In this document: piece by piece, positions 5,801 through 64,000 of the stretch
Numbering within the stretch: the first letter of the stretch is position 1
Layout of the letters: every line of letters starts with the position of its first letter
The notes under the pieces: model-generated
The model's input: only the letters and a program-made list of their open reading frames with translations
Databases searched by the model: none
What the model was told of the DNA's origin: nothing
Translations under genes and position numbers: made by a program
From: Ancylonema sp.
Taxonomy: Eukaryota
NCBI GenBank assembly: GCA_050230475.1
Contig: JBFLGF010000001.1
Location: forward strand, 124,001 to 188,000
DNA: 64,000 nt
Reading direction: 5' to 3'

Positions 5801-5819
5801 CAGGCCCCACAGTGGGTAG
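2817..5819 (+). CDS. INTS3: Integrator complex subunit 3 (SOSS-A) homolog, apparently intronless; frameshift(s) near the 3' end
   Basis: 1000-aa ORF with INTS3 motifs LLRQIAGGD, VFTYLRLI, RYQTWF, DLLRFVCCVVHPTNQILSSDVVPRWAIVGWLL, AKLAVFYDWLFF and NIMNIEPA. Homology moves to another frame after SLEWDSYE (~5291). Confidence 0.9.
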   Translation: MPIGGPQRPGVGGSVVSSGPPSAQVGPGLLIRGPYDAPDEVERMLTHASGAIAQCLAGGVESEINSFLQEKAASGPLQHAEVINGLIFNILTESVPPAQLISYMQLVTRDKYTGCLLVLQRVVAEKWTKLADGVVGKVLWMLEQLIGLGVPETEGLLFCLLRQIAGGDVTPPNLWLANAMLELLTRHRSWLYTCPGSVGLAVFTYLRLIPDHSGRKVQELRQREAAFCCQTLRERLEDCLAVGRDLVRVLQEATAVPELDRIWKDLHSAPAVFGVPDFSDISQLYCVRTPSRYITSRVTPEMETQIRFLLTHVRMGNQRRYQTWFSHRVLAGPESETLVPDLLRFVCCVVHPTNQILSSDVVPRWAIVGWLLKCCKSQLADASAKLAVFYDWLFFQDTCDNIMNIEPAVLLMVHSIPKYADITNALLHCLFHLLDTYDPPRRELLFRGVTTSLSVLTTKGVVNSLEGLVATPLIRPPLVDKLRSYFPAFCNSPPHSDAWPASGRGAAEGGEGDRGVGRVEERDVEGRSKRKRAAEQREELQGELKVHFEILKASVAGSQEKAAEALEHLIVFVTSSEEGLWGGKVMRTAGHGDVSRQTTTAHISLEEQTALANQIREVVAEGGYHLCSPLRKMPSQELSPDETGSLTSILLRLYVINRHPLLRSMLLTWQGAGCNVSARLLCYVARLGEELEMAESREDGEGEGEGEQSQEEEAVAAAFEAYHQLQGEGREKEGLEADLGTCLVWNTYRFLRLLPLVFRYLPHLAGGSVNIIQMLVGVGDPVELASMETSLAAGDYCMGRWGGGADPDEACCRLVEASLEWDSYEPGAGVAAGEGGICGVDHSIPVFPPGETRGGVQKTGAVAGGPDGKCRLCFGPPPGRGSGGSGVRDAPRLREGTGGHLSRGTSLHPAALCTCLRAEAKRREGGEGERGKQGGGRTGERMDGVGGLDAVVGEVNEAVEAKAEAMRRRRVHAATDVGISAIHEDASVKLLVTLYRPHSG

Positions 5820-12696: not shown

Positions 12697-13166
12697 GGCT
12701 GCCTACACGAGTTACTACTAAGTAAACAAACCCCCGCCGCGTTCCTTCAAACTCTTGCCAACAAATCAGGATGTACAGGGGTTCCGACAACGTTAAACAA
12801 ACATTCTCGTGGTCACGGTTTCAATGTCCTTCCTGTTCCTGCAGACGTTTGACTAGTGGTTCTCGCAGTCATAGCTCGATTCATGTGTCAATCTGGCGTG
12901 TCGTGAGTCCTTTCGACACCTTCACCTTCACTCACTACCCGGAGGAAATAATACGATATACGTGACGTCCCGCCCGACTCGTTACTTCGGGGGGTAAGAA
13001 GGTATCCCGCCCAACAAGTTCTTACTAAGAAGTGGTACACATAATGTCTACCAATCGTCGACAACGACTTTCTGATCGGTATAAAGAGGCTTCCTGGAGT
13101 GCAGTACTAGTTTTCAAAAGGAAGTTTCGTTGACTAATTTTCTCCGGAGATATGCCTTTTTTTTTT

Positions 13167-36165: not shown

Positions 36166-37285
36166 AGGACGAGGTTGTTGAAGGTCCTGTGTTTTATCCT
36201 ACGCTTTCAGAATTTCTTCATCCGGATCCGCAAGTATACTTGCAATCTACGTACCGCGACTGTCTGGAGTTCCGAAAAGCCGGTACGGATTCGTTTCTTT
36301 AATTGCGTTACCCAACAATGTGAGCTTGTTTTCATTTCGCAATTGTTTATATACTGTGCAGGTAGATGTAAGATTGCCAGCCCTATCAAACTGAATACCA
36401 TAGAGTCGGCACGTATGGTTCTGGCGAAAAAAGACTTCAGATTCGACACCAAGATGCTTCCATTGCAAAGCAAGATCCTCTACAAGAAAAGTGGTGCCTG
36501 CATGGGATGGCAACACGAAAACCCCGAAAAAAGAATCCGAAGTAAATTCACAAGCAACTGTTGCTTTCTTCTTATTTGACATTTCGCTGACAATAGTTCT
36601 TTTCGTTGACCATGTTCAGCAATTTTTCGCTGGAGGTTTTTGAGGCAAGCTCTTTGGAGGTGCGTCAAAACGTGTTTGGTTTGGCCGCTGATATGTCGGA
36701 CGCCAAAATTGAAGAGTCATTCTGTAAGGAGCTCACTTCTAGAGCATCAAATGTGGTGGAGTACGCCAACGACGTGACGTATTCTGCATTTTCTTCTCTT
36801 CCAAGAGATCCTCTAGGATCCTCGGGGTGGAATTTGACAGTAAATTATGCATTGTAGTTTATAGCAATAAATAAAAACAAAAGGTGATTTTTTGTGAAGT
36901 TGTCATATATACTCAATGTTCTTGGATTTTTATTTTCTTTTGGAAAGATGTATGAAATTATTTATATTGAATCCTCTCTTGAATCCCCTGTTGAATCCTC
37001 TCTTGAATCTTTTTGATATATATTACATGAAATTAGAATTCACAAGTAATATTATGTGTTTATGAACGAAACATGCATGACGATTTTCCAAAGGTGTTTT
37101 TAATTAATAATTGAGCGGGAATACAATAACGTAAAAAATATTTTTCTCCATAAATATATGATGTATGAAGAAATATAAATACAGAAATACGAAAATGTTT
37201 TCATGAAGTGGGTATGAGTGAAGCATTTCATTTTATATATATTTTTGCACACCCGAAAATTATACAGTTGGATTTCATGATAATA

Positions 37286-37810
<525 letters not shown>

Positions 37811-40569
37811 CTAAATAATTAGATTAAAATGAAAAATACTAGTTTGATTTTTTTTTATAGCTTATGAAACAAAAAAATTAAAAATGTAATTATATGATTT
37901 TTTAAAAAATGATTTAACCTATATTTTCTACATCTTATTGCAAAGGATTGCTGGACTTTCAGGGACGCTTACAAGACATGAGAAAGCGGATATTTCAAGA
38001 GTTACCCAACCTATGATATACGTGGGGATGCTTCATAGCTATTTTCCATGGCATGTGGAAGACAACAATTGCTTCTCCATCAATTATTCCCATGAAGGAG
38101 ATGCCAAAACATGGGGGGTACTTGGGGAAACGGAAGCTACTACTTTTGAAGTGTTAATACACTCGATCCTTATTGGGAAAACAGTTAAGTAGTCTTTGGC
38201 GGATTCTATCCTCCGAATTGTGGACAAGTCGGTGATTATTCCCGTTTCTTATTTGGTTAAAGCCGGTCTGCGCGTTCATCGTTTGGTACAACGACCCGGG
38301 GAGTTCATTGTTACAACCCCCCGTGGCTATCATGCTGGTTTTAGCCACGGCTTCAATATAGGGGAAGCAGTGAATTTCGCTCCTTCTACTTGGCTTCCAC
38401 TTGCAGTGCGTCGCTATTCTTTTCTTGGTCTTTGGTCTGTTGTGCATTATGATGCGTATGTTCTTGCAGAGGTGGAAGATATGATTCTTCGCACAAGTCA
38501 TGTGGGGAAGAGTTTGCAAAAAGCTGCTTGGATTAAGCTTGTTGATGAAATGGAAACGAAGGTTGAGGAGATTTTATCACCTTCTATTGTAACTGTTGAG
38601 CGAGTAGTTCAACATGTGTGTAGTGATAAATTGATTGGGAAATGTAGAAGATGTAAAGAGACATGTTGTTTAGTGGGAGTCTAGTGTGCGTGTGACATCA
38701 AAAGTCTTCTATGTGTACGAGAAGATAGATCGACTTGCAAGTGTGTTTCTGTGACTATTTGCTATTCCGAGGAGTGGGAGATGTACAAGCCTCTCGCGAG
38801 TGTTTGGAAAGGAGGGATAGACAAGGAGAGTGTGAGAGAGATACTCCAGGAGGTTGATTTAGAAGATCCGTTATTAGTTAGTCAACCGCAAATTATTGGT
38901 AGGAAAAGGGGCAGGAAACGTAGTGCAAAATAGTAATATCAGGTGGAAAGCATTTTGACATGGTGATGATTGTTGTTTTTTTTACGTTTTTGTGTTTTGT
39001 TGTAGATAGAATAAATGAATGTATTCACTTGGTAGTTAAGTATTTGATATACAACTCCAATTTTTTAGCAAACAAGGTCAAGAAAAGTAGTGCGAAATAG
39101 AAATAGTGCGAATGTGAAAAGCATGAAATGTTGTGGTGTTTCCTTTGTATCAAATTAGTTTTTTGTTTACTTTGTGTGGACACTAATTGACACTTGTGCA
39201 CATTTGGACAGCCTCAGAATTAATGCATTAACCTAATTATTTTATTTTGTAATTTGTGGAACTGATTTTGATGTATACATCCGATGGTGTATTACTGCCA
39301 AAAATCAGAGTGAGATAATGCTATTCAAATTCTAATTAATTAATTGTTGATGGGGGTGTGTGGAAGTAAATACTTTGGTGTATAATTATTTTTGTATGTT
39401 TTTCTTTTTATTTCTAAGTGGAATTGAGAAAGCAAAGTTTCGTTATTACATCAACAATTTATTAAAATTATTGTGATGTTATAATTTTTCATTGTTTGTA
39501 ACACAAATCGGTAACATCCCTTAAAATTGTATTAACATCATGCGAGCTTTGAAAATAACCCACAAAATGGTATCTCTTTTAATGATAAAGTGTTGTCTTA
39601 TACAGATCACTATGCAATTGTATGTCATCACTTCATGGATGTTAGCTTCATAAGGAAGCTGTAAAGGCACATGTAACTTGTACACTCTACATATGAAGAA
39701 AGTAAAACTAATGTTCATCAACTTAATCAACTATTTTATAGCTATCCATTTAAATCTCAAGTATTTGTATTTTTTAGTTCTATAATTATTACATCCGAAC
39801 ATGCAATGCTTTGATGAATGTTCATGTGAACGACCACAATTTTTTATGTGCATTTATAAGGCATAAAATAATGCCCCAAAAAAAAAAAAAAAAAAAAAAT
39901 CCAAAATGTGGCTTCAATATGAATCACGCATTTCTCATGAGGAAGACGTTGCACACAAACAAATCGAGTTGCACTTTAAACGGATTCAAGTTCATTTTCT
40001 TGAGAATTTGAAAAGTTTATTTTTGTATTGTAGGATGGAAATATGTATGAGGAGAATACCAAAACCTGTGAAGGACAAAAACAATAAAATGTAAGTAAAT
40101 AATTAAGTCCCCATTTACTTGCCTATTACCATTTTTCTTTTAAAAAAAATGTTACTTGTTATTCTTTTGCTATTTTGAATAAGCTATGTGTATTCAGTTT
40201 TTGGGTGTCTACATTGTATTGATGTTTTTTTTTTTTTTTTTGGGATGTTACTAGTTTTGGTAGGTTTGAACTTGAAGGAAATATATTTTGGTTTATTTGT
40301 GGGTTGGATTTTTTACGAAAGGAGAGTAAAAGAATACCTTAACATGTTGGTGCCAAAATCGATGTAATATTAATCTTTGGAATGGATTATAGTTACATCC
40401 ATACGGCAAAAAAAAAAACATACGCCGTATGCCATACTTTTGCCAGCCATGTTTTTTAGGTAATTCGTATACATTTTAGGGGTTGTAATTTGGACCCAAA
40501 ATAATGTACCGAAACCCAAAACCCCAAAAAACTTACCAAAGAAGATGTGAAGCATCCAATTGTGTTGTG

Positions 40570-41945
40570 TAACGTACACGGATGATGTCACTCATCCTCC
40601 TCATTCTCCTCCTCATGCAACCATTCCTCATCTTCCTCTATCTCTTCGTCTATGTCTAATGCCTATCTTTTTTTTTGCAGGCTTTTTGAAGCTGATTTTT
40701 CACTACTAGCCACAAACGTTTCTAAGTTCTTACAGAGAAGAGTATACCAATCCCGCTCTTTTACAAATGTTTTATGTTCCTTGCACCAATTATCTATCAT
40801 AACTACCATTTCTTTTTTTAATCCCCTCACTCCACTAATTAGCTGCATAACTTTCTAACACATGCAATCATCTGTAACTTTTTTGAGTCTACTCTTCAGT
40901 ATCGCTAAAGCTCGTTCCTCCTCGATGTCCGTTGTTTCTCTTTGTGATGTTTGAGTAGGAACGCCTTCAGTGTCCTTCTCGACTTCGGGGTCTTCATCCT
41001 CATTATCCTTTCCCACCGCATACTTGTTTAAACTATCCACTATTTCTAACAATGTCTTTTCTACTTGTATACGCTTATTTCTTTCTGTTTCAAGTTGTGC
41101 CTACATATTTTCCCTATCCTCCATGATCTGTTTCTCAAAAGCAACAAATCTTTGCTCTATGGCAACATATTTTTGTTTCTGCACAACATGTTGCTCTTTT
41201 AAGGCAACAAAATCATGCTTCGAGACGAGATGATTCTCTTCTATAGCAAATGGCCTGATGTCCACTACTTGTATCTGTTCCTGTAATGAAGTATTGCTTT
41301 CCACTGTAGGTACAATTGCTAATGTAGTTGGATTTGTAGTATAATTGTCTTCATATATATATCGCACACCACGTGGTGGTTTGTACCTAGGTAAATTGGG
41401 TCCGCTCCTAGCATTTGATGCTGTTTTGTTGAATCCCTCAGACCTCATATTTAACACCTCCAGCGAAGAATAGATATGTGTAGGAAAATAATCGGACACA
41501 CTTGCAAGATCGTAATTTTGTTGCCCTTTGTCATTAACAGCAGGAAGTGACAATGGATGGCAGATGATGTGAAAGCGATTTATCTCGAGGAAATTCTCAT
41601 CGCCATACATCTGGAAAAAAAAATGTAGTACAAACATCAGATTAGAGCATGCTTTTATTCAAATTCGTGAAGAAGGAGAGAAAACGATATGAGATGAAGC
41701 TCACTTTCTTTAGTTTCAGAGCCGCATTATTTGCTCCATCGACCACGATCGCTCGCAATAACTTGTGGTTGTGTGTGTTGCCCGAGAGACACAATAGTGC
41801 CAACAGGCACAACGCCATTCGGCATAGAACCTAGTGAGAGCATAGCGCGAAGGACCTTTTTGAGTGTCTCTTTATCATGATGCACCCGAGGACCAGCATC
41901 AGCGCTTGGTGCCTCGGCAACACTCGATTGCCTCACAGTATCCAT
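40570..41945 (-). pseudogene. Decayed two-exon transposon accessory gene with coiled-coil/acidic C-terminus (possibly En/Spm TNP1-like)
   Basis: MDTVRQ..VGTIVSLGQHTQPQVIA, a frameshift, then an intron (~41611-41704), then MYGDENFLEIN.. and heptad-like LKEQHVVQKQKYVAIEQRFVAFEKQI with stops. Family assignment is weak. Confidence 0.45.
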
Positions 41946-42030
41946 TTGATCAGAGAAACAAGGAGAGGATATCGCAAGTGTTGCGAGTATATGAAAATTG
42001 TTGGAGCACAGTATTCCGCTTATAGCAGCC

Positions 42031-42570
42031 TTTGCAGCGAGTTTGCAGCGAGTTTGCAGCGAGTTTGCAGTTTGCAGTTTGCAGCCTGCAGCTTGCAGCG
42101 AGTTTGCAGCGAGTTTGCAGTTTGCAGTTTGCAGCCTGCAGCTTGCAGCGAGTTTGCAGCGAGTTTGCAGTTCGCAGTTTGCAGCCTGCAGCTTGCAGCG
42201 AGTTTGCAGCGAGTTTGCAGCGAGTTTGCAGGTTGCAGTTTGCAGCCTGCAGCTTGCAGCGAGTTTGCAGCGAGTTTGCAGTTTGCAGTGTGCAGCCTGC
42301 AGCTTGCAGCGAGTTTGTAGCGAGTATGCAGCGAGTTTGCAGCGAGTTTGCAGCGAGTTTGCAGTGCACCGTATTTTCTCCGATTGCAGCGAGAACAGCG
42401 TATTTCCGCCGGTTGCAGCGTATTTGCGCCGATCGAGCGAGTGCACCTTATTTCCGCCGATTGCAGCGAGTGCAGCGAATTTCCGCCGATTGCCGCGATT
42501 GCACCTAATTTTCGCCTATTGCAGTGAGTGCAGCGACTGTACCTACCGTTTTCCATATTTTGCAGCGGGT
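42031..42570. repeat. Subterminal tandem array of gcagcgagttt/gcagttt units with ~49-bp higher-order period, degenerating rightward
   Basis: Visible in sequence; it explains the repetitive LQTRCKLAA ORFs. Confidence 0.92.
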
Positions 42571-42831
42571 AGAGCGATAGCCCCGTATTTCCGTTGCACA
42601 ACGTTTCTCGTTGGTGTACTGCATTGGTTTTTTGGTTGGTAGGGACATGGCTTCGACGAAAAAAAGGCCGGCAAACATGCAAAAAACGGTCGATAAATCA
42701 AACCAGCAAGGGGATAGCTTTGCCATTAAAAATTGGTTTTTTGGGGGTTTTTTTTTGGGGTTTTTTTTTTTTTTTTTATTTTTTATGATTACAAGTCAGG
42801 CATAACAGAAAGGTCAGGCATAACAACAGTG
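42031..42831. mobile_element. Right terminus of a CACTG-ended (CACTA/CMC-like) DNA transposon; left terminus not found
   Basis: Minus strand begins CACTGTTGTTATGCCTGAC at 42831, with gtcaggcataaca twice. Homology of the adjacent MITE stops exactly at 42832. Confidence 0.55.
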
Positions 42832-47399: not shown

Positions 47400-49480
47400 T
47401 AGGTCCTCGTTGTAGGATCAGTTCATCCAAATCATCGTTTTATATTTTGGAAATATCATGGGACAGTCGAGTGTCGAAACCCTTTATTGCACTGGTTGGC
47501 AATTGTCCTGGGTATCGAACTTGAAGTTTAGGTAATGTTGCACGAGTGATGTCACGTGCGTCTTGGTCAATGTCACTGTGGGTATATGTACCAATGTTGT
47601 TTCCAGCTTCAAGGTGCATGATAGCGCCACTGCAACTCATGCCACCAAAAGGCTCCCAAATGTGTAGACCATCTTGAGCGCCTTAGGTTGTAAGCGTGCT
47701 GTGTAAGATGGAACAATTGGTACAGCATCACGCATCGGTCTGCCTTTCCATGCGTTCCATTGTGGTAATGGCTGGTTTTGTATCTTGTCGATGACCTTGC
47801 GCAAATAATGTGCACTGTTGATACGCAAGGTTGTAAGTCTGTTGAGTGCATGGTGCTAATTTACTTGTGCCATTGTTCTGGCCGCTGCATTAAGTTTTGG
47901 TCGATGTGCTTGACGAATGTCTGTGTGTTTGGTTGTAGCAAGGTAAACCATGGTATTGGTTTCCCATTCCTCCATATGAGGTTGGTACTCATTGTCGATG
48001 GGTCCATCTAGAAAATGTTGTGGTTTGTGGTATACACCTTCTTCCATGATACGAAACTCAAATTCTGTCAGAATGTCGGTTTTTTTTGTTGAATGCAACA
48101 AGTCCTCGTTTGGAATTTGCATAAATGTGTCACCAGAAGTGTAAGTAACACCTGCATCCATGTATTGACAATGCACCGATGCTGCGTGTGGCAAGGTGTA
48201 TTTGACTGGAATTGAAGCACGGTGTGTACCCTGTTTTTTCTAGTCGACACGGTAGTGAAAATGTTGACTCCATGGATCCGTAATACCTCCTATTGGTTCC
48301 AAGAAAGTACTGCCCAACAAAACGTCGTAGTTGTCGGAAGGTGTCAAATGAAGTTTTGCGTTAACCGAAGTTTGGTTTTTACCATGTCCAATATTGATAG
48401 TGTATGCTTTCTTGGTGGTCCCCAAAGATTGTTGGTATTTGCCATCTGAAGTTACGTATTCTTCTCCAGGATCAAGGTCTTGTGGTGCAAGCCCGAGTTG
48501 TTTGGCAAATTTTGTACCAATGGTCACGTTCTCTGCACCTGAATCGAATATTGGTAGTGAAGGTGTTTCTCCACCAATCGTGAGTGGATTGACTATTGTC
48601 AGCGGTTGGTATATGTATGTTGGTTGTCAATCTAGCGTTGCAAGGAATCACCGGTGGTTTGGTGTTTTGTGGTCCCATTATAGAGAGTGCCATTGGTGGT
48701 TGTGGTATCTCTGCTTGTCGAGGGTAATCATGTGGTGGTGGTATGTCACCCTGAGGTGAGTCAAGTAACGAATTCCGTCGTCGTGGACAGTTGGTCATTG
48801 TATGTCCTGTTTGTCCACAGAAATAACATCGTAGTTCTTTTTCAATGACATTGTATGGTTCTTCAAAATCAGGTCTGTCTAGTGCCTGATGTGTAGCAGA
48901 CTCGAGTGGTATCGAGGTACATGAAGGTGAAAGGTCTGGGTGGTTATCAATGGAATACCCCAGGCTATGTTCGATCTTCGTGACTGTTGTAGTCGTTCGA
49001 AGTTTTGTCATGAGTTTTTCCAATACTCGTTCAAGTTGTTCATCAGAAATGTGAACAGATCCTGCAGAAATGTCTGACTGAGGTGCCATGGCTGTGTAAG
49101 CTGGTGGATCAACTTCCTCAGTCTTAGGCTGCGCGTATCGTGTGAAAGCCAATGAAGCTTTCCACACCTCTTCTGCTTGAAGCAATTGAATGGTGAGATG
49201 ACGAGGGATGTGCTCCTGCCACTCCTGCTTCCTGTATGTTTGTAACATCTAGACGTGTGCCAATGTTTGTTCTCGCATATGAGGTGGTAATAGGTGTACC
49301 ATTTGGTTTTGTTCTTCAATCTGACTCAGAACGAGTCCCAGTTTGTAAAATCGAAAATCTTGTCCCAGATCTGTTGTTATGGAAAGCAGATCTATGATGT
49401 TAATTTGTTCAACATATATTCAATTTTGGATGCTCTTTCTACCCAACGTCCATGATTATAAACGTCAATCATTGAATCGT
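47400..49480 (-). pseudogene. Second, AT-richer LTR-element gag-protease remnant, frameshifted
   Basis: CYFCGQTGHTMTNC knuckle; PIFDSGAENVTIG..FAKQLGL..YDVLLG protease. Confidence 0.75.
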
Positions 49481-51132
49481 AATATGAAAAGTGTATATCG
49501 TCAATGAAGTAGTAGTCAGGAAAGACAAAGGATGTACAAAAAACATTTTCTGGTCATACTATTTGTTTCAAAACTTTTAATTTATCGAAATCAAGGTCGT
49601 CCGCGGTCGGATTGAAGTAGTTTTGCAGATTGAGTCTCTGCTGAGATCTCAATATTATATTTATCACACGTCTCAGCGGTCTGATGAAATTCACTACTTA
49701 ACGCCGAGGGCGAGCTAACAGATGGTTTATAGTACAAAAGTTTGTGAAAATACTATAAAGCAAACAAGATAGTCTGGAGCACACAATCAAGGTTAACAAC
49801 CGTAAGAGTTACTTTCGGTGCGAAAGCAAAGTATCGACGGCGCGTCGATAAAAGATGGAGGCTCAGAAAGAGCGTCAGCAGACAGGTGTAAACGACAAAT
49901 GCTGAATCGGAGCGAGCGACAGCACACACACACACACAATGAAAGTGCCGGTTCGGAGAGAACGCGGGCAAATCGACAAATGTTTAACACACACTCACGC
50001 ACGCTTGCTGGCTCAGAGAGAGCGTCAGCGAATCGATGTAAGAAATTACAGTCGATTAACAAGCTGGCTCAGAAAGAGCGTCAGCAACGGATTCAGATGA
50101 ATCAAATCAAATACACACACACACTGATTGCAAATAATGATTTGCAATCTTACCGGCTGGCTGACGGATGTCAGGTTGAGTCGGAAGACGAGCACGTTGC
50201 GAAGTCGCGTAAGCGAAGGGATGCAATATTCACAGAATTGCAAAGGATTCAGATAACACAGAAGATTGTTGGAAGGGATTTCTTAACAGCGCAATCTGAC
50301 AGCGGACGCTCGCAGATCTGAAAGTACAATTTTACTTTTATCACAAAGTTGTTGCGCGGTGCTAACCGGCAAAGTTAACTAGAGTTAAACTGTCGAAGAT
50401 CACGACAGGCTGGCTTCTAGAACATTACAATTCATCTCGGCGCTCCGATGAAAAACGGCGCGAGATATTACTCTAGTTCTACGGCTGGATTAATCGCCGG
50501 GATTATCGACAAGTCGAAAGAGACTTGTGATTTTAACAAAAATCGACACGCAACTATTTGTTGAAGACTGCTGGATTCTAGACTTCGGAAAATACGCCAC
50601 GCCGGAAGATACGCCACGCGTTATTTTCAAGTCGTACAAATTTCGTACTTCACTATTTTTCTAGCAAAGTACTAATTCTTAAAAAATCGTTATATCGAAT
50701 ACATTAATCTTAGAGGGTTTCTGATAAATCTAGAAGGGTTTCGCCTTAGCGATCTCTAGCGTCATGACACTAAGTCTGTGCTAAGATCTCAATATTATAT
50801 CTATCACACGTCTCAGCGGTCTAATGAAATTCACTACTTAACGTTGAGGGCAAGCTAACACTTGGTTTACAGCATAAAAGTCAGGGAAAATACTATAAAG
50901 CAAACAAGATAGTGTGGTGCAGACTATCAAGGTTAACAGCCGTAAGAGTTACTTTCGGTCCGAAAGTAAAGTACCGACGGCGCGTGGATAAAAGATGCTG
51001 GCTCAGAACGAGCGTCAGCAGACAGGTGTAAACAACAAATGCTGGCTCGGAGCGAGCTACAGCAAACACATACACACAAACACACACAAATGAAAGTGCC
51101 GGTTCGGAGCGAACGCAGGCAAATCGACAAAT

Positions 51133-51253
<121 letters not shown>

Positions 51254-52021
51254 GCTTGTTTGACCAGAGAGAGCGTCAACGAATCGATGTAAAAATTTAC
51301 AGTCGATAGCAAGGCTCGCTCAGAAAGAGCGTCAACAACAGATTCAGATGAATCAGATCAAATACACACACACACAGATTGCAAAGAATGATTTGCAGAA
51401 CTTACCGTCTGGCTGACGGATGTCAGGCTGAGACGAAAGACGAGAACGTTGCGAAGTCGCACAAGCGAAAGGACGCAATATTCACAGAATTGCAAGGATT
51501 CAGATAACACAAAAGATTGTTGGAAGGGATTTCTTAACAGCGCAATCTGACAGCGGAAGTTGGCAGATCTGACAGTACAATTGACTTATATCACAAAAGT
51601 TGTTGCGCGGTGCTAACCGGCAAAGTTAAATAGAGTTAGACTATCGAAGATCACGACAGGCTGGCTTCTATAACATTTCAATTAATCTCGGCGCTACGAT
51701 GAAACAGCGCGAGATATTACTCTAGTTCTACGGCTGGATTTAATCGCCGGGATTATCGACAAGTCGAAAGTGACATGCGATTTTAACAAAAATCGACACG
51801 CAGCTCTAGTTGTTGAAACTACTGGATTCTAGACTTCGGACAATACGCCACGCGTTATTTTCGAGTCGTACAAATTTCGTACTGCACTATTTTTCTAGTA
51901 AAGTACTAATTCTAAAAGTCGTTATATCGAATACTCTCGTTATAGAGGAGTATTAATCTAGAGGGGTTTCTGATCAATCTAGAGAGGTTTCTGCCTTAGC
52001 GATCTCTAGAGTCATGACATC

Positions 52022-54513: not shown

Positions 54514-54924
54514 GCGTATGGAGGAGCACCCCTAGGAATTACCGCGACTAGGAGGAACGTTGTCGCACGCCAATATTGGTAGGCACGAGAGGAGCCATTC
54601 ACGGACTTACATACTACTCATGTGCTCCCATTGCGCAATGTGGGAAGTCATCTCATTAACTTTGGGACATCAACTACATGGGCGCACGAGATTGTGTGGA
54701 CAACTGATTTTCTGAAACACTAACCCGATTAAGCGTCCAATCATTCTTTGGACGTCAATATGACCATCTAAATTTGGACACTATCTTACGACTCATTTGC
54801 ACGGATATGCGAGTTATACCGGACCACTACATGGTCCGGTGTAGAGAAATGACGTCCGCCGTATGGCGTAGATCACACTGTACAAAGTGAGGACAACAAA
54901 ACGAGCAAATCATCCCCAATTTTT

Positions 54925-57900
54925 TCAGAGCACCAACTCGGAAATCGAAAGCTCCGCATGCCACATTCCCCTCACAAACTCCTCTACATGCTTCGCTCCA
55001 CCATTCGACAACGCGCGTAGATCTTCCGCATGAACCTCCACCTCTTGGTGTTGGCCGTGGGTTTGGAACTCCTTGATGCCCTTGTCCCATCCGGCCCACC
55101 ACGTCACATCCAACATCTCCACACGGATAGGAAAGCCCGCAAGTTGCCCCACGAATGCGGTCGTGATCACTTTGCGTATGTGTGCGACTTCCGTCTTGAA
55201 GTCATCCCCTACTTGCACCACCTCTATCCCTTGCTCCTCCACCTTCCTCACCAACAACGGGAGCAGTTTCAAGCGTTTCATGAGCTTGCTGCTGGGCTCA
55301 AGAGCCCGTTTCGAATGAATGTACATCCGCGCCGTGAGGGGGCGATCCCTTGCCTCCTCCTCCAGTGCGTCCTCGTCCCCAAACCCCGCGTTTGCGAGGG
55401 ATGAGGAGAAGGTGAGGGAGGCGGCCAGCCAACGCAGCGGGCGCTGAGTGGCCTTGGCGTCGAGGACGCCTAGTGCGTCATCCAGACAGATACGAGCTTC
55501 GGTCCCCAACCCACTAATGGTGACGCGCCACATGGGGTCGCTAGATGATTGACGCTGAAAGTTATGGGCGGAAAGGAATCGTACGAGGGGGTCCAGGGGT
55601 TGGAGCACCTGAGGGGACCACAGTCCACAATCCACAGTCCGCACTGAAATGAGCACAGCGTACCAACAGAGTCATAAGAATTGAAAGTTGGGAGTGTGGT
55701 GAGGTCTTACTTGGGTGTATAGGGCTTGAGATAAGCCCTTCTCTTTCAATGGCTTTGTTTTTTGGACACCTTCGCCATCTGTCTTCACTGGGGTCTGGGT
55801 GTCCAGGTCATGAGTTTTGGCCTTCTTTACCTTCTGCCTGCTGTCCACCTCCGCCCCCCCCTCCACCCGCGCGGAGAGCCCAGAGCTCGCCTGCCTCTGC
55901 CACAGCTTCGCCTGCCTGCGCCCCTTGGCAAGCGCATCCTCAAACTCCTCGATCTCAAGGGACCCCAACGAGTTTTCTGACACAGACCGCCCGAGGTGCA
56001 TCAGGTACTGGGTACCAAAACGAATGACCGCCCCCACCCCCCCCGGCCCCTCTGGGCACCGCTGCAGCGCCTCCACCTGTCTCAACACTGCGGAATGGAG
56101 CCTGCGGAAGGCATGTGCCTGCCAGGTGTCGCCAGCGCATGGCGCCACCAGTGCTGTTGTGTGTAGTTCCAGCCCCCGGTGATGGAGGTGGTGCACCTTC
56201 TCGTAAGGGCGGAACCCCAACTCGTCCCTCTTAGAGTTGGCACCCTGGAATAGTTGGCACACAGACCCCTCCACAAACATGCTGCCCGACGCGCGGTTCA
56301 AGATCACCGACCCATCCACCATGCCTGACAGGTAACGCTCGATCCTGCGCACTGCGGACCACTCCCCTGTGATGTCCGCCCACAGGGGGGGGCGACGGGT
56401 TCCTACTCTCCCGCTGCTGGCAGGGGTGATGACCACGCTCGCCTTCCCCCTGCCCATGAGATGAAGCTTCTGAGCGTAATACGCTTTTCTTCCTTTGTAT
56501 TTGGCACACATCCCTCGGTGTAGTCGTACACGCACGTGTCGGGTGACAGCGGTGAGTAGGCCGTCCACACAGGCAGTGGAGGTGAGGAGGTGAAGGGCGC
56601 CGAGACAGTAGTCACGAAACTCGCGGAAGGAGTGGGAGGAGATGGCCACACACGTGCGGTCACTCTTGAGGGGATCGATGATGCTCAAGGGGGACCCCTC
56701 CCTGCTTCCAGGAAGCTTCTGCCCTTCCCCAGCCCCCAGGTATGTGAGGACTTGAATAAGTGCCTCCCCCACCAAGGTCCCGTCTGCCATTCGTCGCGCT
56801 TCCTCTGGATCCTCTCTCATGCCGTCCAACAAGTCGAACCAAAAGGAGCGAAGGCTCATCATGTCCGCCTCCTCTACTCCCAACGATGCTGAGGTGGCAC
56901 CTCCTAGGTACCCCCTCTCCAGACAGAATGCCACGATCATCCATGTGAGGCCGTCTGCAGTCATGATTCCTAGCGGCTTGTGAGCCACCAATCCGGTACG
57001 CTTTCCCCAGCGAAGCAGTATGCGGAGGAGGAGCAGTAGGGCGGGGCAGGATTGAATGTGGGAGCGCAGCATGAGGCTCTTGAGTAGGCCAGGGGGGTGT
57101 GCCGTCACGTCCAGCGGCACAGCCATGGAACCGCTGTCGCAGATGAGGAGGGGCACCTCAGGATGCGCCAACAACCTCACCTGAAGGGGCCGAGGGGGAC
57201 GGTTATTCATTCTAAGAAACGCAGAGGGTCACCTCCCCAGCTGCACGGACTCACCTCTGGGAAGGAGGGCTGCATTGCCACCTGGAGCTCCTGCAAGAGC
57301 GCCACCTGGCTCGTTTTGGGCAGAGGGTCGGGCCAAGCAGCCCCCGCAGGGAGGGGTGCGGGGAGGAGACATACGTCCACGTCGGACATGTTGGGGTCGA
57401 ACAGGTACGTGGAGGAGGATCCGAACATGCACAGCTGGCGGCCGGGGAGTGGCAGCAGATCCAACACCTCCTCCAACTGCTCGCACAGATTGGCTCGGTC
57501 CACAAAAGATGACCATAGGGACGCCCGGGTGCCGTCAAAGTCCAGCTTCAGGCTGTCACTCACGCGCTCTGGGAGGGACGCGGGAAGGGATCTCTGGGGG
57601 GTCCTGTTGGTCGCAGTAATCACAAGGAGGTCGAGTATGGCCCAAAGGAAGGAGAGGGAGCGGTCTGTGGGGTCAGGGTCCGAATACGCCACCCAGTAGC
57701 AGGCTGCCGCCAGGTCATACTGCTTTCCTGATGAGAGGAGGGAGCACTGGAGATCAAAGGAGCTTCTGGTTTGGGTGACCATGGTCTGGAACAGTTCCTG
57801 GATGGTGGTAACCACGTCCCCCCTGTCCAGGTGGGGATGGACCTTCCGCACGCACCCCGTCACCACTTCCCCCTCACTCTCAATCCCGAACTGATTGCAG

Positions 57901-60900
57901 AGGCCACGGACGGCGGAGCGAAACGACTTGTACAGCCCCTCTGCAATGGGTAGGAAGTCTTCATACCCGGTCGTGAGCAGGGATGGGTCAGGTTGAGTCT
58001 GCTTCGTTCCCATCCCTACCTCCTCACCACTGTGGTCCACACTCATGGCGCGACGGCACATGGTACCGAGGACAGTGGGGGACTCGTAGACCTCCCTGTC
58101 CGTCTTCCCCATGAAATCGGGAAACTGTTTGGGTTGGAGGTCCGCGGGTATCCCCCCCGTCCACCCCGTCTTTCCTGCGTCTACTGCCGTGTGGTGCAGG
58201 TCTGCCAGGCGGAGGCAATCAGGGTGGGCGGCTCCCCCTATGTCCACGTGTGTGTCCGCCCATGCCAGGTGTGCGTTGGCGATCTGCCCCAGCTCCGCAC
58301 TGCCCATCAGTGCCACATAGCTCTCCGCCAGGTGGCGCACGCTCATCATCTCACCCTCCCCGATCTCCACAGCCGCCCCAGGAGTGAAGTCCATGGACGG
58401 GAATTCTGTGGACGGCAGGAGAGACTCGTCCCATATGACGGCGTACTTGTCCCCGTCTAGGTCCCCCCCTGACATCTTATCCGCCTCCGGCCTCTCCCCT
58501 TTCACAGAGAATACCACCACATCGATGGAGTCCCGACCCAGCCGCTCCCTCACTGCACTACTCCCGTTGGCTTTCAATTGGCTCACGTCCCCTGGATGTA
58601 GGCACGGGGTCCTGTACACGGTACACAGGCCGTCCAGGACCCACGGCCACTTCTCCCCAGGGGTCCTCCGGTCCGCCCCTGGTTCCCAGGGGGGTGCCAG
58701 TGGGGCAGACAGTTGCACGAAAACCTCCCCCTCCTCCAGGACCCCACTCGGGTCTGCCACCCCCATCAGCAGCCGCCCCTCCTCCACCCACAGCCGACTC
58801 TTCTCTGTCAGATCACGTACACGCCATTCATAAACGGCGCGCACCATACTGCGCAGCAGCGCATCTTCCCTCACGGACTGCCCCGTGGCCCGCCATGATG
58901 TCAGCAGACTCCCACTGTCCCTAACGCTATTTTGCAGAGCCGCCCATGCTACCTCGTCGTCCTGGAATAGAGTGAGCAGACTGCACAGCTGGCGCTCCTG
59001 CAGGGGGGCACAGAGACGGAGAGGTTGGCGAGAGCGATCCGAGATCGGCTTATGATTGGTACGCAAGTACGAAGGTCACAAACCGCAGAATGAGTTGTCA
59101 CAATCAGAGAATGGCGGTGCTTGCTTTCAGTGTCCTTTCAACAAACACAATTGTGGGCCCATATATTGAGGTAATGAGGTCAAGTACATGATCGAACCGT
59201 ATGCCGTAAACAGTGACTTCACATGCAGTTGCCATTCTGGGCGCCACCTACACTAGAAGGCGTACTGAATCAGTGCGACGCTTGGAAATAACAAAATGGC
59301 CAACTGTGGTATGAGTGTGGTGTGTCCCAACGTGCAGCTTGCCTGCATTGCCTCGAAGAGATGAGGAGGCACCCCCCTCGCCAGCATCAGGGTGATTGCC
59401 TGCCTATTCAGGTACAAGGGCTGGTTGCTAGACTGCCCCTGGACTGAGAGGTGAGAGCGGGAGGACTCAAACTTCTTCATGCTAGGACGAAGATGGAGGT
59501 GACAAGACGGCCAGGAAGAGCCCGGGGAGGGGGGGGGCGCTGTGAGGGCGGACTCTACCGCCACCACCCCCTTCACACCTCCGATGCGGACCTGGAGTAC
59601 GGAGGGGGGAGGGTGGTTGGGGAGGCCCAGCTGGCGCACCACGGCATCCCGGGCGGCGGATGAGATTTTCCCGCACCCGTCTGTGAAGACATGCTTGTTC
59701 TTCCCTCGCCCCACCACATCCTGGAGCAGGTTGGCGTTATGGAGGCACGCAGGGTGGAAGGGGAGGGAGGGTCTGGAGGCAGCCAGGTCTTGACCCAGGC
59801 GGGCAAGGTACTTGGAAGGGCAGCGGATGCTAGACAGGTCCCCAATCCAATCCCACACCTTCTCCACGCTGAGGGACGTCATCCAGCAGCCATGGCTGTG
59901 GATCTGACTGGGGGTGGCCGCCAAGAGCCTGAAGGTCTCCCCCCCCACTTCCAGCCCTTGCACCAGCACCTCCCGCACCCGATCCAGCAGAAGGGACTCC
60001 TGCCCGTGGATAAAACCACCGTTCTCGTCGCGGAAGTTCACTATGAGGAACCGGTCGGGATCCTGGAAGTGGCGGAGGATTGCGTTGGATGCGACTGGAG
60101 CCGGTGGCGAGTGGAGTGTCCGTAAGGGACTTATGGTGGCTCGACGGATGGCAATGTGGTTGGCAGGGAGGGGGAGCAGGGAGGGGCCCCATGAGGGAAC
60201 CGGGTGGGTGGAGGCTGCCTTCAAGACGTCCACCGGATTGCAAAAGCGGCGTAGGAGAGAAGGCATTTGCATGAGAGCCCACTCCGCCCGCTCCCACCCG
60301 CCTTCGGGGCTCCACAGAGCAGCCAGGTGGACAAAGAATCGATCGGGGAGGGTGCCCGCAGGGAGCAGATGAGCATGTTCGGTTCGCAGGCAGTCCAGCA
60401 AGCAGCGCACACGGAAGGGAAATAGGAGGCTAGCGTTGGGTCCACACTCGCTCGCTGCCACCGAATCTCTGTCCCTTTTCCTGCTCACCTCCTGCTCCTC
60501 TGCATCTGCCTCCAGATCCCCCTCCCCCCCCCCCCCCTCCCCCATCTCTTCCCCCTGCGCCAGCGAGTCCTCTATCCACCCCCGCACCACCTCCACCCCC
60601 CCCGCCCTCAGCGCTCCCACCAACGGCCCAGGAACCGCCACCTCCAGTCTGTACACAAACGCCTCCCCCACAGCCTTGGCCACTCCTGCCCCATCCAAGG
60701 CCAACCGCATCCACCTCGTATCCTCCTCCCCAACCACTGCGCGGTAAAGACGAGGGCAGCAAAGAAGAGGCAGGTAGAGCCTGGTCTTCTGCCCCTCTAC
60801 CGCATGCAGCACGGCTGGCCCATGAACAGCGGCGTGGGGGAGCTCCACGCGCAGCTGCAGGTGATGTAGTTCGATGTAGAGAAGACCCTTTTGTACCACC

Positions 60901-63900
60901 CACCGGACCTCCGCCACCTCCCCAGGTCCGTCCAGATCCTCCACCCCGACAAAGACCCCAGGCGTCATCATGTGGCCTACTGTACACCTGGTGAGCGGCG
61001 CCCTGGTGGCGCCACCTGGCATGTCCGCAGCAGATACGCCCTCCCCGTCGCGTTGAAGCCATAGGCGGGTGCCCCGGAGGTCTAGGTGGGCGTTCTGGCA
61101 AAGATCTTGGTAGGCCTGATGCGCTGGTAGGCCAGGTGGCATCAGGATGTGGAGGAGAGCCTGGCCTGTAGGCTTGGCCACCTTCAGATCGCACAACTCC
61201 ACCTCACCCACGCCGGAAAAAAGAGCCGCCACTTCACCTGGACGGAAAGACGGAAAAGAGGGGTTGGATTGGGGGGTAGTCTAGCAAGAGAAGTTATGTC
61301 TAGAGGCGAATCACCTGTGGAGCAAGAAGAAAAAGAACTTGGAACCATCTTTGGTGAGATAACAACATAAGAAGTTGCATATCTGCGTCATTGCATAATG
61401 CACCTATGTTTGCTACGGGAGCAAAGGTTGGAGTGAAACTTTTCTAGAAAATTGGGGATGGGAAAATCAGTCTGCCATGGCTATATCTAACAAACTGGAA
61501 AGCCAAGTCAAGATAGAGTAATGAGCTCTAAATGTAGAGCATTCTGTCTTTCTTCGTCCGGAGAAATATCATTACGAAGCGACTTGATGTTTGTGCTTTC
61601 AATGTTACAGAAGCACGCAGTGCGATCAATGGTTGTATTGATCCAGTTACATTGTTTCAGATTAACTTGCCGAGGGCGCATCTTGGCAGTTGATAGTTGA
61701 GCACAACAGTGTCATGGATGAGATAGAGCAAGCAGGATGACGATGTGAAATAGTGCAAATATTGTTATTGTGATGATAGAAAAGGGCAGGCTAAATGATT
61801 GAGTGAGAAGCAGAATGGAGAAATTGCTTTGGTGAAGTGTACTTTGGTGAACGTGATTTAAAATTATTATATCTGTCATCCTCTGCCTCCTCACCCTGGG
61901 CAGCAGAGCGTGGGACATTGTGCAAAGTAATCACCAGACTCTCCCCACCGCCCGGATCCTGCTTGTCAAGAACGACCACACCTTCTCCCACTTCTACTTG
62001 TGCTTCTACTTCCCCTGTCGCCCCCCCTCTCTCTCCACTCTGCCACTCCATGCGTGCCTTATCAAGTTGGGAGCAGAGGTGGTGAGTTTGGGGGGATGCC
62101 ACCTGCTGCATCCCCCGTATGGCCCTCATCATGCAACGCTCCTCTTCACAACGAGACTCCCACACCCCCTTCTCCTCCACGTTGGCCAGCACCACAAAGC
62201 GACTGTCCCTCTTCCTTGCCCTCCCCCTGCTCTGGATGAGTGCCGTCATGGAGACAGCTCCGTCGAATCGTATCACAAGGTTGCATGCGGGCACATCCAG
62301 GCCTTCTTCTGCGACACTGGTGGCCACCAGAATGCGATACACCCCGGAACGGAACCGATCCAGCACGGGCTTCTGCTCCTCTTGCCAGCTCATCCCGTCA
62401 AACCCAGAGTGACCGACCAACGTGGCTACCTTGAGCTTCTTCAGGGCTTCTACCTGCCCCAACATCTTGGCCACAAGCTTGGTTGTGCTTTTCTTCTGCA
62501 CGAATATGAGCACACGGGAGTTGGAATTGTGGCGGAGAGATTTCGTGACCTCATCTATCACAGCAGTCATCCTGCTAGACCACTCCTCCCTGTCTCCCTC
62601 CCCCACTCCATGACCTGTCCACGAAAGCGGCCATCTCAAGTCCCGGATGATCTCCAGCTTTGCCGCTTGCTCCTTGGAGCACCCCACCCTCTTCCAGTAT
62701 CTGCACAGTTCCCTCCGTGAAGCCGAGGGGCTGTACACGTGGCACGTCCACAGCATGCTCATCATTTCCAGGGCGTGCTGCACCACGGCACGCAGGGGAC
62801 CCGCCTTGCGGGCAGAGGCGAAGTCCTGAAGCTTCCGCAGTTCCCCCCTCAGGTTTCCCTCCACCAACTCTGCTGAGAAATTGGAGTCTAACTGGAAGTA
62901 GTCACTGGCCACAGCCATCCTCTGCACCTTGGCCAGCAGAGTGTTCAAGTACCCCACCAACTCCCGTTTGAATGCCTCCTCGTCTGCAGAGGGCACCACC
63001 GGCACACACTCTGTGTCGGCTCTGGCAGTGAGATCTTCCAACTGCTGCCAGTAGAGATTCGGTACCCGGAATTCGGCGCCGCAGAAGGCCTGGGACAGGG
63101 AACGCAGCTGGATACCTGTTTGCGCCATGGAAATCTTGCCACCTGGGGACGCTGTGAGACCTGGCACATCACAGGGCAGGTCGCATACTGCAATGAGATC
63201 TAGAGAGGACAGTCTTCTGGCATTCACAGTTGCACAGGACGTGTTTGCAGATTACGAGGTATCAATCAGTTTGGGACGACCATAAAATTCAGGGCATCTA
63301 AATCGATGAAGGGACCAACGAGAGGGATGTGCAGAACCTCATACAACATTCTCGGAGGTGGAGGCAACACCACGCTTTTCAAAATCATGTATCTGGTGTT
63401 GCATACCTTTTTTACCATAATTGTATGGTCAAAATTGCACGCACTACCAGATACATAATTTTGAAGACTGAAAGTCTACAAACATCTACACACATGATTG
63501 AAGTATGAGTACAATTACACGAATTGACACCCACACCCTCACAACTCACCTAGAAGACGGGGCCTGTCCTCCAGGAGGCAAGGACGGAAATGTTCATTCA
63601 GGATACGAGCAAAAGGGTGGGTCTTGGAAGCGTGGTGGGCTTCATCGAATACCAACAGGCTGCACCAAGAGAGAGGGAAGCCCGCTGCCAGCTTGTTCAG
63701 AAAGACCTGCGCTGTCATGGCCAGCACGTCGTAATCATCTTTGAGGGACATTATGTCGGCAGCAGTGGAGAGGTTGAGCGAGGAGGAATTCTCTCCGGTG
63801 TATTCCTGCAAAAAAACGAAGAGCGGCAGTGGAGAGGCTGAGCGAGAAGGGATTTTCGTCAATGTATTTCTGGAGGCAACCGAAGAGCAGCAGGTATGTG

Positions 63901-64000
63901 GTTTACACAAGCTGTGATCCCGCCCATGTGCTGCTTTACACACCTGAACCCGCAGACCGGCATCCACCCTAAGTACTTGTGCTTGCTGATGCACAAGCGG
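54925..64000 (-). CDS. Multidomain RNA-dependent RNA polymerase: Dicer/RIG-I-like helicase + RRM + RdRP + Cid1/TUTase-like nucleotidyltransferase + KH-like + C-terminal domain; 5' end beyond the window
   Basis: Exons >64000-63944, 63805-63550, 63160-61895, 61237-59343, 58997-57255, 57180-55711 and 55608-54925 total 7371 nt and join in frame. Helicase motifs PLVHQQ, VFDEAHHA, LLGLTASP, VLIFV, ILVATSVAEEGLDVPACNLV, QSRGRAR. RdRP motifs TDGCGKIS, QVRIGGVKG, LRPSMKKF, LNRQ, RTPCLHPGD, SGGDLDGDKY, AVDAGKTG, FPDFM. NTase motifs FGSS..SDVDV, VPLL..LDVT, LSIIDP. Confidence 0.9.

What the first reader, a model, noticed from the sequence alone, without database searches (positions are those of the whole stretch)
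54925..64000. One polypeptide fusing Dicer-type helicase, RRM, RdRP and a TUTase-like nucleotidyltransferase
Seen: seven exons splice into one frame of at least ~2450 codons with intact helicase, RdRP (DLDGD) and nucleotidyltransferase motifs. Established: these activities cooperate as separate subunits in S. pombe RDRC (Rdp1, Hrr1, Cid12), Tetrahymena RDRC (Rdr1, Rdn1/2) and C. elegans (RRF-1/EGO-1 with DRH-3, plus RDE-3/MUT-2 tailing). Land-plant RDR1/2/6 carry neither helicase nor nucleotidyltransferase. Inference: a self-contained machine that senses or unwinds RNA, tails its 3' end and copies it, for antiviral or anti-transposon silencing. I do not know of a characterised example of this triple fusion.
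Basis: partly seen in the sequence, partly recalled or inferred. Interest (0 to 1): 0.93.

Follow-up and report, generated by a model that had tools for sequence, protein, structure and literature searches.

The report
All-in-one RNA-silencing polymerase with triphosphate tunnel
This spliced gene, likely from a green alga close to land plants, joins a double-stranded-RNA helicase, an RNA-copying polymerase, an RNA-tailing enzyme and a tunnel domain predicted to grip RNA 5' ends in one chain; it belongs to an old, widespread gene family whose back half seems to have gone unnoticed and whose tunnel most resembles the guide-RNA binders of trypanosome RNA editing.

Summary
Real. Seven minus-strand exons give one frame of 2456 codons plus stop; about 210-225 N-terminal residues lie beyond the window. 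All six junctions align without gaps to relatives. Helicase, RdRP (DLDGD) and TUTase-fold nucleotidyltransferase (GS..DxD..D) motifs are intact; the RRM is only weakly supported. The gene is no one-off: all 56 long relatives listed carry RdRP plus nucleotidyltransferase, 53 also the helicase, in Mesotaenium, liverworts, Bryopsis, oomycetes, amoebae, chytrids, Hydra, a dinoflagellate, a metamonad and Willaertia. Helicase-RdRP fusions are in print (Dictyostelium, oomycetes, cnidarians); I found no paper on the tail, but one key review was not held. It appears to lack the metal-binding motif-a glutamates, so it is likely a 5'-triphosphate binder, not a phosphatase. Likely mechanism: clamp RNA, tail the template 3' end, copy it, hold the triphosphate product. 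No RNA evidence for this locus. The scan noted this family earlier in Naegleria.

The parts
63944..64000 (-). Exon 1 of 7 in the window (open at 5'; helicase motif Ia region). About 210-225 residues, with Walker A and a CxxC..CxxC domain in relatives, lie beyond 64000
63550..63805 (-). Exon 2: helicase motif II DEAH at 63649-63635
61895..63160 (-). Exon 3: helicase motif III (TAS) to motif VI (QSRGRAR), Dicer/RIG-I class; start of the RRM-like segment
61083..61943 (-). RRM-like segment (residues ~511-578, split by intron 3); weakly supported
   Evidence: probability 2.8%, P 0.016
59343..61237 (-). Exon 4: linker and N-terminal half of the RdRP domain; ends at a GC donor
57255..58997 (-). Exon 5: RdRP catalytic half (DLDGD at 58463-58449), head domain, first half of the nucleotidyltransferase (GS..SDxD at 57422-57375)
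55711..57180 (-). Exon 6: third catalytic Asp (57111-57109), rest of the TUTase fold, KH-like segment (~56541-56302), first part of the tunnel domain (RFG strand 56022-56005)
54925..55608 (-). Exon 7: rest of the triphosphate-tunnel domain (conserved Arg residues, ExE at 55044-55036) and stop codon
56563..57509 (-). TUTase / non-canonical poly(A) polymerase-fold domain (residues ~1655-1945, split by intron 5)
54928..56280 (-). RESC1/RESC2-like triphosphate tunnel domain (residues ~2040-2456, split by intron 6), assigned through the Riccia orthologue

Best explanation
The window encodes one large cellular RNA-dependent RNA polymerase with a Dicer/RIG-I-class helicase in front and a TUTase-fold nucleotidyltransferase and a predicted RESC-like triphosphate tunnel behind, which likely works as a self-contained silencing amplifier. 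Shown: the frame, the domain order, the intact catalytic motifs, and the conservation of the whole chain across eukaryotes. Inferred steps: (1) the helicase, with the zinc domain seen at the N-terminus of relatives, clamps a dsRNA or aberrant RNA end; (2) the nucleotidyltransferase adds a short untemplated tail, most likely U, to the template 3' end; (3) the RdRP starts de novo at that end and makes a 5'-triphosphate complementary strand; (4) the tunnel, which appears to lack the motif-a glutamates, holds that triphosphate end rather than cleaving it, and the product passes to Dicer or Argonaute against transposons and viruses. The gene was likely inherited vertically in streptophytes, and the host is probably a zygnematophyte-like alga.
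For: Gene model. RdRP: E 7e-54 to Arabidopsis RDR2 with DLDGD aligned. Helicase: best solved relatives are DCL1, an ancestral Dicer helicase, LGP2 and MDA5. Nucleotidyltransferase: the D-x-D..D/E triad is intact in 81 of 89 aligned family rows, the window included; the tail profile's PDB hits at E<=0.03 are all TUTases or non-canonical PAPs; fold match to TbTUT4 Z 24.4, rmsd 3.0, 269 aligned. Tunnel: AlphaFold model of the Riccia tail has mean pLDDT 81.8; residues ~390-824 match RESC2 at Z 24.2, rmsd 3.1, 275 aligned, RESC1 at Z 22.4, Cet1 at 16.5 and Pct1 at 14.4. A sequence profile of 25 tail fragments has RESC2 as its best PDB hit, E 0.039. Acidic residues are found in 0 of 84 rows at window position 2124 and 16 of 84 at 2122, whereas R2323 (72 of 74), R2374 (R or K in 68 of 69) and E2418 (63 of 67) are kept. 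RESC2 binds RNA 5'-triphosphate and lacks two of three catalytic glutamates (PMC10201420, passages). Family. Window, Mesotaenium and two liverworts form one group in both the RdRP tree (SH-aLRT 99) and the tail tree (97). Single-chain transcripts in relatives: Cavostelium Trinity ORFs of 2433 aa with helicase, RdRP and MTPAP-like domains. Precedents: MUT-2 tailing makes RdRP templates (10.64898/2026.09.04.749402, abstract); Dictyostelium RrpC silences DIRS-1 (PMC3950715, title and passages).
Against: No transcript, protein or activity was observed for this locus. The fold is of the Riccia orthologue (33% identical to the window protein), not of the window's own tail. In the sequence alignment to RESC2, its essential K311 faces a Ser position and R402 faces the residue two after the family's invariant Arg, so the binding residues are not cleanly matched. 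The window has Thr where 65 of 74 rows have Asp (position 2321). The nucleotide-recognition loop is variable across the family, so U-specificity is a guess. 8 of 89 rows lack the triad, among them scallop proteins that also lack the helicase, so the modules can decay. Bryopsis ends before the tunnel. The fused RdRPs do not form one group in the quick tree (at least 2 changes forced).
Confidence: 0.55

Rival explanations
1. Same architecture, but the tunnel is an active RNA 5'-triphosphatase that trims the RdRP product for Dicer, the job done by the separate PIR-1 phosphatase in C. elegans.
For: Fold match to Cet1, Pct1 and TcCet1 (Z 16.5, 14.4, 11.3). A C-terminal ExE and a D-x-R strand are conserved. 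PIR-1 acts with RRF-3 and Dicer (PMC13650160, passage).
Against: The positions I assign to motif a are not acidic. Loss of any one of the three glutamates inactivates Cet1 (PMC10201420). The closest folds are the pseudoenzymes RESC1/2. The motif-a assignment itself rests on a recalled Cet1 motif, not on a residue-level superposition.
Confidence: 0.15
2. The nucleotidyltransferase tails the products (new strands or small RNAs) to mark them for loading or turnover, rather than priming the template.
For: TUTase-fold enzymes commonly uridylate small RNAs (HESO1/URT1, PMC7994812 passage). The domain lies on the product-holding side of the chain, next to the tunnel.
Against: Known RdRP-coupled tailing makes templates (MUT-2; Tetrahymena Rdn1/2 and S. 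pombe Cid12 recalled, papers not held). No structure of the whole chain was modelled.
Confidence: 0.2
3. The tail is a dsRNA-activated second-messenger synthase of the OAS/cGAS type, making the protein an immune sensor.
For: RIG-I-class helicase; OAS1, cGLR and CD-NTase folds appear at Z 12-16.
Against: TUTases and non-canonical PAPs score Z 18-24 and are the only sequence hits.
Confidence: 0.04
4. The fusion is a gene-model artefact: two or more neighbouring genes read as one.
For: No RNA evidence for this locus.
Against: RdRP and the first nucleotidyltransferase motif lie in the same exon. Junctions are gap-free against relatives. 53 of 56 long relatives carry all three modules.
Confidence: 0.02

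Closest known systems
Helicase-RdRP fusions: Dictyostelium RrpA/B/C, peronosporomycete oomycete RDR, Hydra and Nematostella RDR (PMC4791657)
   Same: DEAD-like helicase, helicase-C and RdRP in this order; about 27% identity colinear over 2100-2400 residues with oomycete RDRs; Hydra and dictyostelid members were retrieved by the tail profile.
   Different: The papers read describe only helicase and RdRP ('both functional domains', PMC3950715). The nucleotidyltransferase, KH-like segment and tunnel are not mentioned, and streptophyte, chytrid, metamonad, dinoflagellate and heterolobosean members are not listed in the passages seen. D. discoideum RrpA-C tails were not examined (2285-2417 aa, long enough).
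Multi-subunit RdRP complexes: S. pombe RDRC (Rdp1-Hrr1-Cid12), Tetrahymena RDRC (Rdr1-Rdn1/2), C. elegans RRF-3/DRH-3/PIR-1 and MUT-2
   Same: The same set of activities: helicase, RdRP, tailing, handling of 5'-triphosphate.
   Different: Separate polypeptides there. Hrr1 is a different helicase superfamily and PIR-1 a different phosphatase fold (recalled). S. pombe and Tetrahymena details are recalled; only the title of Lee, Talsky and Collins 2009 was seen.
Trypanosome RESC1/RESC2 (GAP2/GAP1) guide-RNA binders
   Same: Closest solved fold of the tunnel, including about 50 residues ahead of the barrel that Cet1 does not cover (model 388-824 against 443-824); missing motif-a glutamates; weak direct sequence match.
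   Different: RESC1/2 are stand-alone mitochondrial heterodimers; 13-14% identity; K311 and R402 are not cleanly matched.
Plant RDR1/2/6
   Same: RdRP core with DLDGD and head domain.
   Different: About 1100-1200 aa, without helicase, nucleotidyltransferase or tunnel; a separate group in the tree.
TUTases / non-canonical PAPs (TbTUT4, RET1, RET2, Cid1, GLD-2, CutA)
   Same: Fold and catalytic triad.
   Different: Fused behind an RdRP; nucleotide-recognition loop not assignable.

Membership tests
Eukaryotic cellular RdRP | RdRP domain with DxDGD | tested here: met
   Pfam RdRP E 9.6e-60 and 7.3e-71; DLDGD aligned to RDR2
Eukaryotic cellular RdRP | Assignment to the alpha, beta or gamma class | not tested
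   The tree held no RDR3-5 or QDE-1 rows
Dicer/RIG-I-class SF2 helicase | Motifs II (DExH), III, IV, V, VI | tested here: met
Dicer/RIG-I-class SF2 helicase | Walker A (GxGKT) | not testable with these tools
   Lies beyond base 64000 and no genome is held; present in relatives
RIG-I C-terminal-like zinc domain (relatives only) | Two CxxC pairs and profile match | tested here: inconclusive
   41 of 50 full-length relatives have two or more CxC/CxxC before Walker A; Pfam RIG-I_C-RD E 0.0079 over 3-113/117 in Mesotaenium, below cut-off; DRH-1 C-terminal domain E 0.45; outside the window
TUTase / non-canonical PAP (Pol-beta superfamily) | GS..DxD..D catalytic triad | tested here: met
   Window D1697, D1699, D1763; 81 of 89 rows
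TUTase / non-canonical PAP (Pol-beta superfamily) | Two-lobed TUTase fold | tested here: met
   Riccia orthologue model against TbTUT4, Z 24.4, rmsd 3.0, 269 aligned; window exon 6 against TbTUT4, E 4.8e-6
TUTase / non-canonical PAP (Pol-beta superfamily) | UTP-selecting nucleotide-recognition motif | tested here: inconclusive
   Only a D/x-P core is kept and the loop varies
Cet1-type RNA triphosphatase (active tunnel enzyme) | Triphosphate tunnel barrel | tested here: met
   Cet1 Z 16.5, rmsd 3.4, 218 aligned, on the Riccia orthologue
Cet1-type RNA triphosphatase (active tunnel enzyme) | Two metal-binding glutamates of motif a | tested here: not met
   0 of 84 and 16 of 84 acidic at the two positions before the RFG strand; the mapping rests on a recalled Cet1 motif
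RESC1/RESC2 guide-RNA binders | Deformed tunnel with N-terminal extension | tested here: met
   Z 24.2, rmsd 3.1, 275 aligned; Z 22.4, rmsd 3.0, 278 aligned
RESC1/RESC2 guide-RNA binders | K311 and R402 triphosphate ligands | tested here: inconclusive
   Not matched column for column in the weak alignment; other Arg residues are invariant
RESC1/RESC2 guide-RNA binders | Stand-alone mitochondrial heterodimer | tested here: not met
   The domain is the C-terminus of an RdRP chain; so not a member, at most a homologue
Helicase-RdRP family (Dictyostelium Rrp, oomycete RDR) | DEAD + helicase-C + RdRP in one chain, colinear with oomycete RDR | tested here: met
RRM | RNP2/RNP1 and profile match | tested here: inconclusive
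   Probability 2.8%, 33 columns
KH domain | beta-alpha-alpha-beta-beta-alpha topology with GxxG loop | tested here: inconclusive
   Secondary structure of model residues 300-380 fits; no GxxG in the aligned rows; not folded alone

The most novel reading that the evidence does not exclude
An ancient, possibly last-common-ancestor, one-chain RNAi amplifier (end sensor, helicase, RdRP, TUTase, 5'-triphosphate tunnel) survives from algae and liverworts to Hydra, amoebae, oomycetes and heteroloboseans, and its tunnel domain is the missing homologue, and the likely source, of the RESC1/RESC2 guide-RNA binders of trypanosome RNA editing, which were reported to have no sequence relatives outside kinetoplastids.
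Probability: 0.35. Interest if true: 0.88.

Novelty: new variant of a known kind. Interest (0 to 1): 0.72.

Why it matters
Tailing-coupled RdRP activity has been studied only as multi-subunit complexes. Here it is hard-wired in one chain in organisms with good genetics (Marchantia, dictyostelids, Hydra), so the open question of how an RdRP picks and primes its template can be tested by point mutations in one gene. The single RDR of many oomycetes, and probably the Dictyostelium Rrp proteins, would need re-annotation as tailing enzymes. Early land plants kept a fourth kind of RDR. The RESC1/2 resemblance offers a concrete origin for a core part of kinetoplastid RNA editing in RNAi machinery.

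Tried and rejected
No RNA holder was listed for 54800-64000, so no reads were laid; this is no evidence on expression. No whole genome is held, so the 5' exons and the host's Dicer and Argonaute genes could not be read. A word-based search with exon 6 among longer proteins found nothing in 5322 candidates, although relatives exist; the blank reflects low sensitivity. Single-sequence folding of exon 6 failed (mean pLDDT 36.6) and was not used. The first small tail profile gave no RESC or Cet1 hit; only the 25-row fragment profile did, weakly. The ESM Atlas gave no usable hit for exon 7. A search with a dictyostelid tail returned 4 proteins and no D. discoideum Rrp. The N-terminal domain of Mesotaenium alone gave no PDB hit of note. 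No KH structure appeared among the listed fold matches, which the larger domains fill. Retention of the in-frame intron 1 was rejected because relatives align without gap only to the spliced form. Horizontal transfer from oomycetes is disfavoured because every module's best match is a streptophyte protein; no formal clade test was run. Literature: ten full-text searches listed no paper on an RdRP fused to a nucleotidyltransferase or tunnel. 'transferase' has 0 hits in the main text and 2 supplements of PMC4791657, and 0 in the main text of PMC10080066, whose 6 held supplements also lack the nucleotidyltransferase terms and even the RdRP accession, so the domain table may not be among them. RdRP has 0 hits in the 2026 editing review PMC12936278. 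Not held: the Burroughs, Ando and Aravind 2014 RNAi review, which could describe this architecture, and two Tetrahymena RDRC papers. Precomputed Pfam tags already show PF22600 on 7 of the 120 proteins listed, so the nucleotidyltransferase is visible in databases.
Full report
Observation. The gene is on the minus strand. Seven exons (64000-63944, 63805-63550, 63160-61895, 61237-59343, 58997-57255, 57180-55711, 55608-54925) splice to 7371 nt, 2456 codons and one stop; five introns are GT-AG and intron 4 is GC-AG. The frame is open at base 64000. Mesotaenium, Riccia and Marchantia relatives have 225, 210 and 208 residues before the window's first residue, so the start, Walker A and an N-terminal domain are outside the window. 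Pfam finds DEAD (weak), Helicase_C, both halves of RdRP and a weak MTPAP-like hit, and nothing on exons 6 and 7. All six junctions align without a gap at the junction to Mesotaenium and Riccia. RdRP and the first nucleotidyltransferase motif share exon 5, so that fusion does not depend on any splice call. There is no direct transcript evidence for this locus.

The modules. Exon 3 matches DCL1, an ancestral Dicer helicase, LGP2 and MDA5 best. Exon 5 matches Arabidopsis RDR2 at E 7e-54 with DLDGD aligned. Exon 6 has one PDB hit, T. brucei TUT4, E 4.8e-6. A six-row profile of the tail finds only TUTases and non-canonical poly(A) polymerases (16 hits). In an alignment of 88 relatives and the window (7 of 95 selected proteins were dropped for lack of the anchor motif), G1684, S1685, D1697 and D1699 are kept in 86, 82, 82 and 85 of 87 rows, and the third acid in 81 of 88; the full triad is intact in 81 of 89 rows.

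The family. Of 120 listed RdRP relatives of exon 5, 25 are longer than 1800 aa and all 25 are colinear with the window protein at about 27% identity. Of 17 scanned, the 15 long ones carry Helicase_C, RdRP and an MTPAP-like hit (E 5e-13 to 0.014) and the two ordinary-length controls do not. A profile of the tail found 585 cluster representatives at E<=0.001; the best 150 were listed. Of these, 103 carry RdRP sequence; all 56 of 1800 aa or more carry RdRP and nucleotidyltransferase, and 53 also the helicase (the tail match is by construction, helicase and RdRP are not). Thirty were looked up by name: Riccia sorocarpa, Marchantia paleacea, Mesotaenium, Pelomyxa, Mastigamoeba, Cavostelium, Acytostelium, Heterostelium, Synstelium, three chytrids, Amoeboradix, Paratrimastix, Hydra vulgaris, Prorocentrum, Willaertia magna and two scallops; the rest are unnamed. 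Scallop members lack the helicase and the triad. Cavostelium members are Trinity transcript ORFs of 2433 aa, and the P. sojae RDR was confirmed by overlapping cDNA and RACE (PMC4791657, section 11), so relatives are transcribed as one unit.

Host and descent. Every module's best match among 19 selected relatives is a streptophyte protein. Window, Mesotaenium, Riccia and Marchantia form one group in the RdRP tree (42 rows, SH-aLRT 99) and in the tail tree (27 rows, 97), with the window next to Mesotaenium. Both are quick trees without bootstrap, with long branches, and deeper relations are unresolved; the fused RdRPs do not form one group. The host is probably a zygnematophyte-like alga (inference). 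A viridiplant survey noted a long-branch Mesotaenium RDR among 'ancient RDR-like homologs' without mention of a helicase (PMC7994812, passages); I did not check that it is the same gene.

I folded the last 824 residues of the Riccia orthologue with a 64-row alignment that included window exons 6 and 7 (mean pLDDT 81.8). Residues 1-300 are a TUTase fold (TbTUT4 Z 24.4). Residues 300-380 have KH-like secondary structure without a GxxG loop. Residues ~390-824 are a triphosphate tunnel: RESC2 Z 24.2, rmsd 3.1, 275 aligned; RESC1 Z 22.4; yeast Cet1 16.5; Pct1 14.4; TcCet1 11.3; Foldseek E 1.4e-8 to the RESC1-RESC2 entry. The RESC match begins about 50 residues earlier than the Cet1 match. Independently of structure, a 25-row profile of tail fragments ranks RESC2 first among 177,635 PDB sequences, E 0.039 over about 200 columns. 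RESC1/2 were reported to have no sequence homology outside kinetoplastids, to lack two of three catalytic glutamates, and, in RESC2, to bind the guide RNA 5'-triphosphate through K311 and R402 (PMC10201420, passages). The family likewise has no acidic pair before its RFG strand, which I take as motif a from a recalled Cet1 motif, and keeps R2126, R2285, R2323, R2374, E2418 and E2420. Against a simple transfer of function, K311 and R402 do not fall on conserved basic columns. In relatives, the N-terminus has two CxC/CxxC pairs in 41 of 50 and a sub-threshold RIG-I C-terminal-domain match in Mesotaenium (E 0.0079).

Mechanism. Most likely the helicase clamps an RNA end, the nucleotidyltransferase tails the template, the RdRP starts de novo, and the tunnel holds the 5'-triphosphate of the new strand for hand-over to Dicer or Argonaute. 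The architecture is shown (confidence about 0.95); the order of steps is inferred (0.55). Tailing that creates RdRP templates is documented for MUT-2 (10.64898/2026.09.04.749402, abstract). A helicase, Dicer and the phosphatase PIR-1 work with RRF-3 (PMC13650160, passages). A helicase-RdRP, RrpC, silences the DIRS-1 retrotransposon (PMC3950715, passages). The window itself holds broken Helitron-like and retroelement pieces, a fitting but not telling context.

Prior knowledge. The helicase-RdRP half is published for Dictyostelium, peronosporomycetes, Hydra and Nematostella (PMC4791657, passages). Ten full-text searches listed no paper on the tail, and the term counts in the papers read were nil; the gaps are listed under Tried and rejected, chiefly one review not held. 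D. discoideum RrpA-C are 2285-2417 aa long, but their tails were not seen, so a genetically characterised member probably exists without being proven here. I had noted both possibilities before reading it and tested them here; the excerpt shown does not name RESC1/2.

Verdict. A real gene and a new variant of a known kind: a streptophyte member of the helicase-RdRP family, with an apparently undescribed and conserved TUTase plus tunnel tail. Interest 0.72.

Noticed in passing
window 63806-63943 (intron 1): The intron holds a 46-nt copy of the start of exon 2 (38 of 46 identical), a small tandem duplication; the intron is 138 nt, in frame and without a stop.
   Followed up: partly
window 59342 (intron 4 donor): Non-canonical GC-AG intron inside the RdRP domain; the junction is gap-free against relatives.
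   Followed up: yes
window 2763-5816, + strand: A long single frame matching Integrator subunit 3 (Ints3_N E 1.9e-144).
   Followed up: partly
window 11088-12702, - strand: Probable spliced DUF92 membrane-protein gene with a transit-peptide-like N-terminus; Pfam match weak (E 0.007).
   Followed up: partly
window 17961-23212, - strand: Broken Helitron-like element: DUF6570, PIF1 helicase and endonuclease pieces in several frames.
   Followed up: partly
window 33927-35487 and 48472-49248: Retroelement gag/pol fragments with zinc knuckles; long (TA)n at about 37200-37820 and tandem repeats at about 41727-42697 and 49800-51320.
   Followed up: no
P0131 against window 54928-55533: A 202-residue protein from a 975-base ENA contig differs from exon 7 at 6 of 202 residues, so a close relative or allele exists in another sample.
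   Followed up: partly
P0201, P0250, P0272, P0275 (scallops): Bivalve RdRPs keep the tail and tunnel motifs but have lost the helicase and the nucleotidyltransferase aspartates, a natural decay series.
   Followed up: partly
P0163, P0188 in the tail tree: Hydra and two unnamed proteins group with the dinoflagellate Prorocentrum (SH-aLRT 99), which may reflect transfer, contamination or tree error.
   Followed up: no
P0127, P0268, P0269 (Marchantia paleacea): Three neighbouring locus tags (Mapa_004763, 4765, 4766) in one cluster suggest a tandem array or split models; P0268 ends before the tunnel.
   Followed up: no
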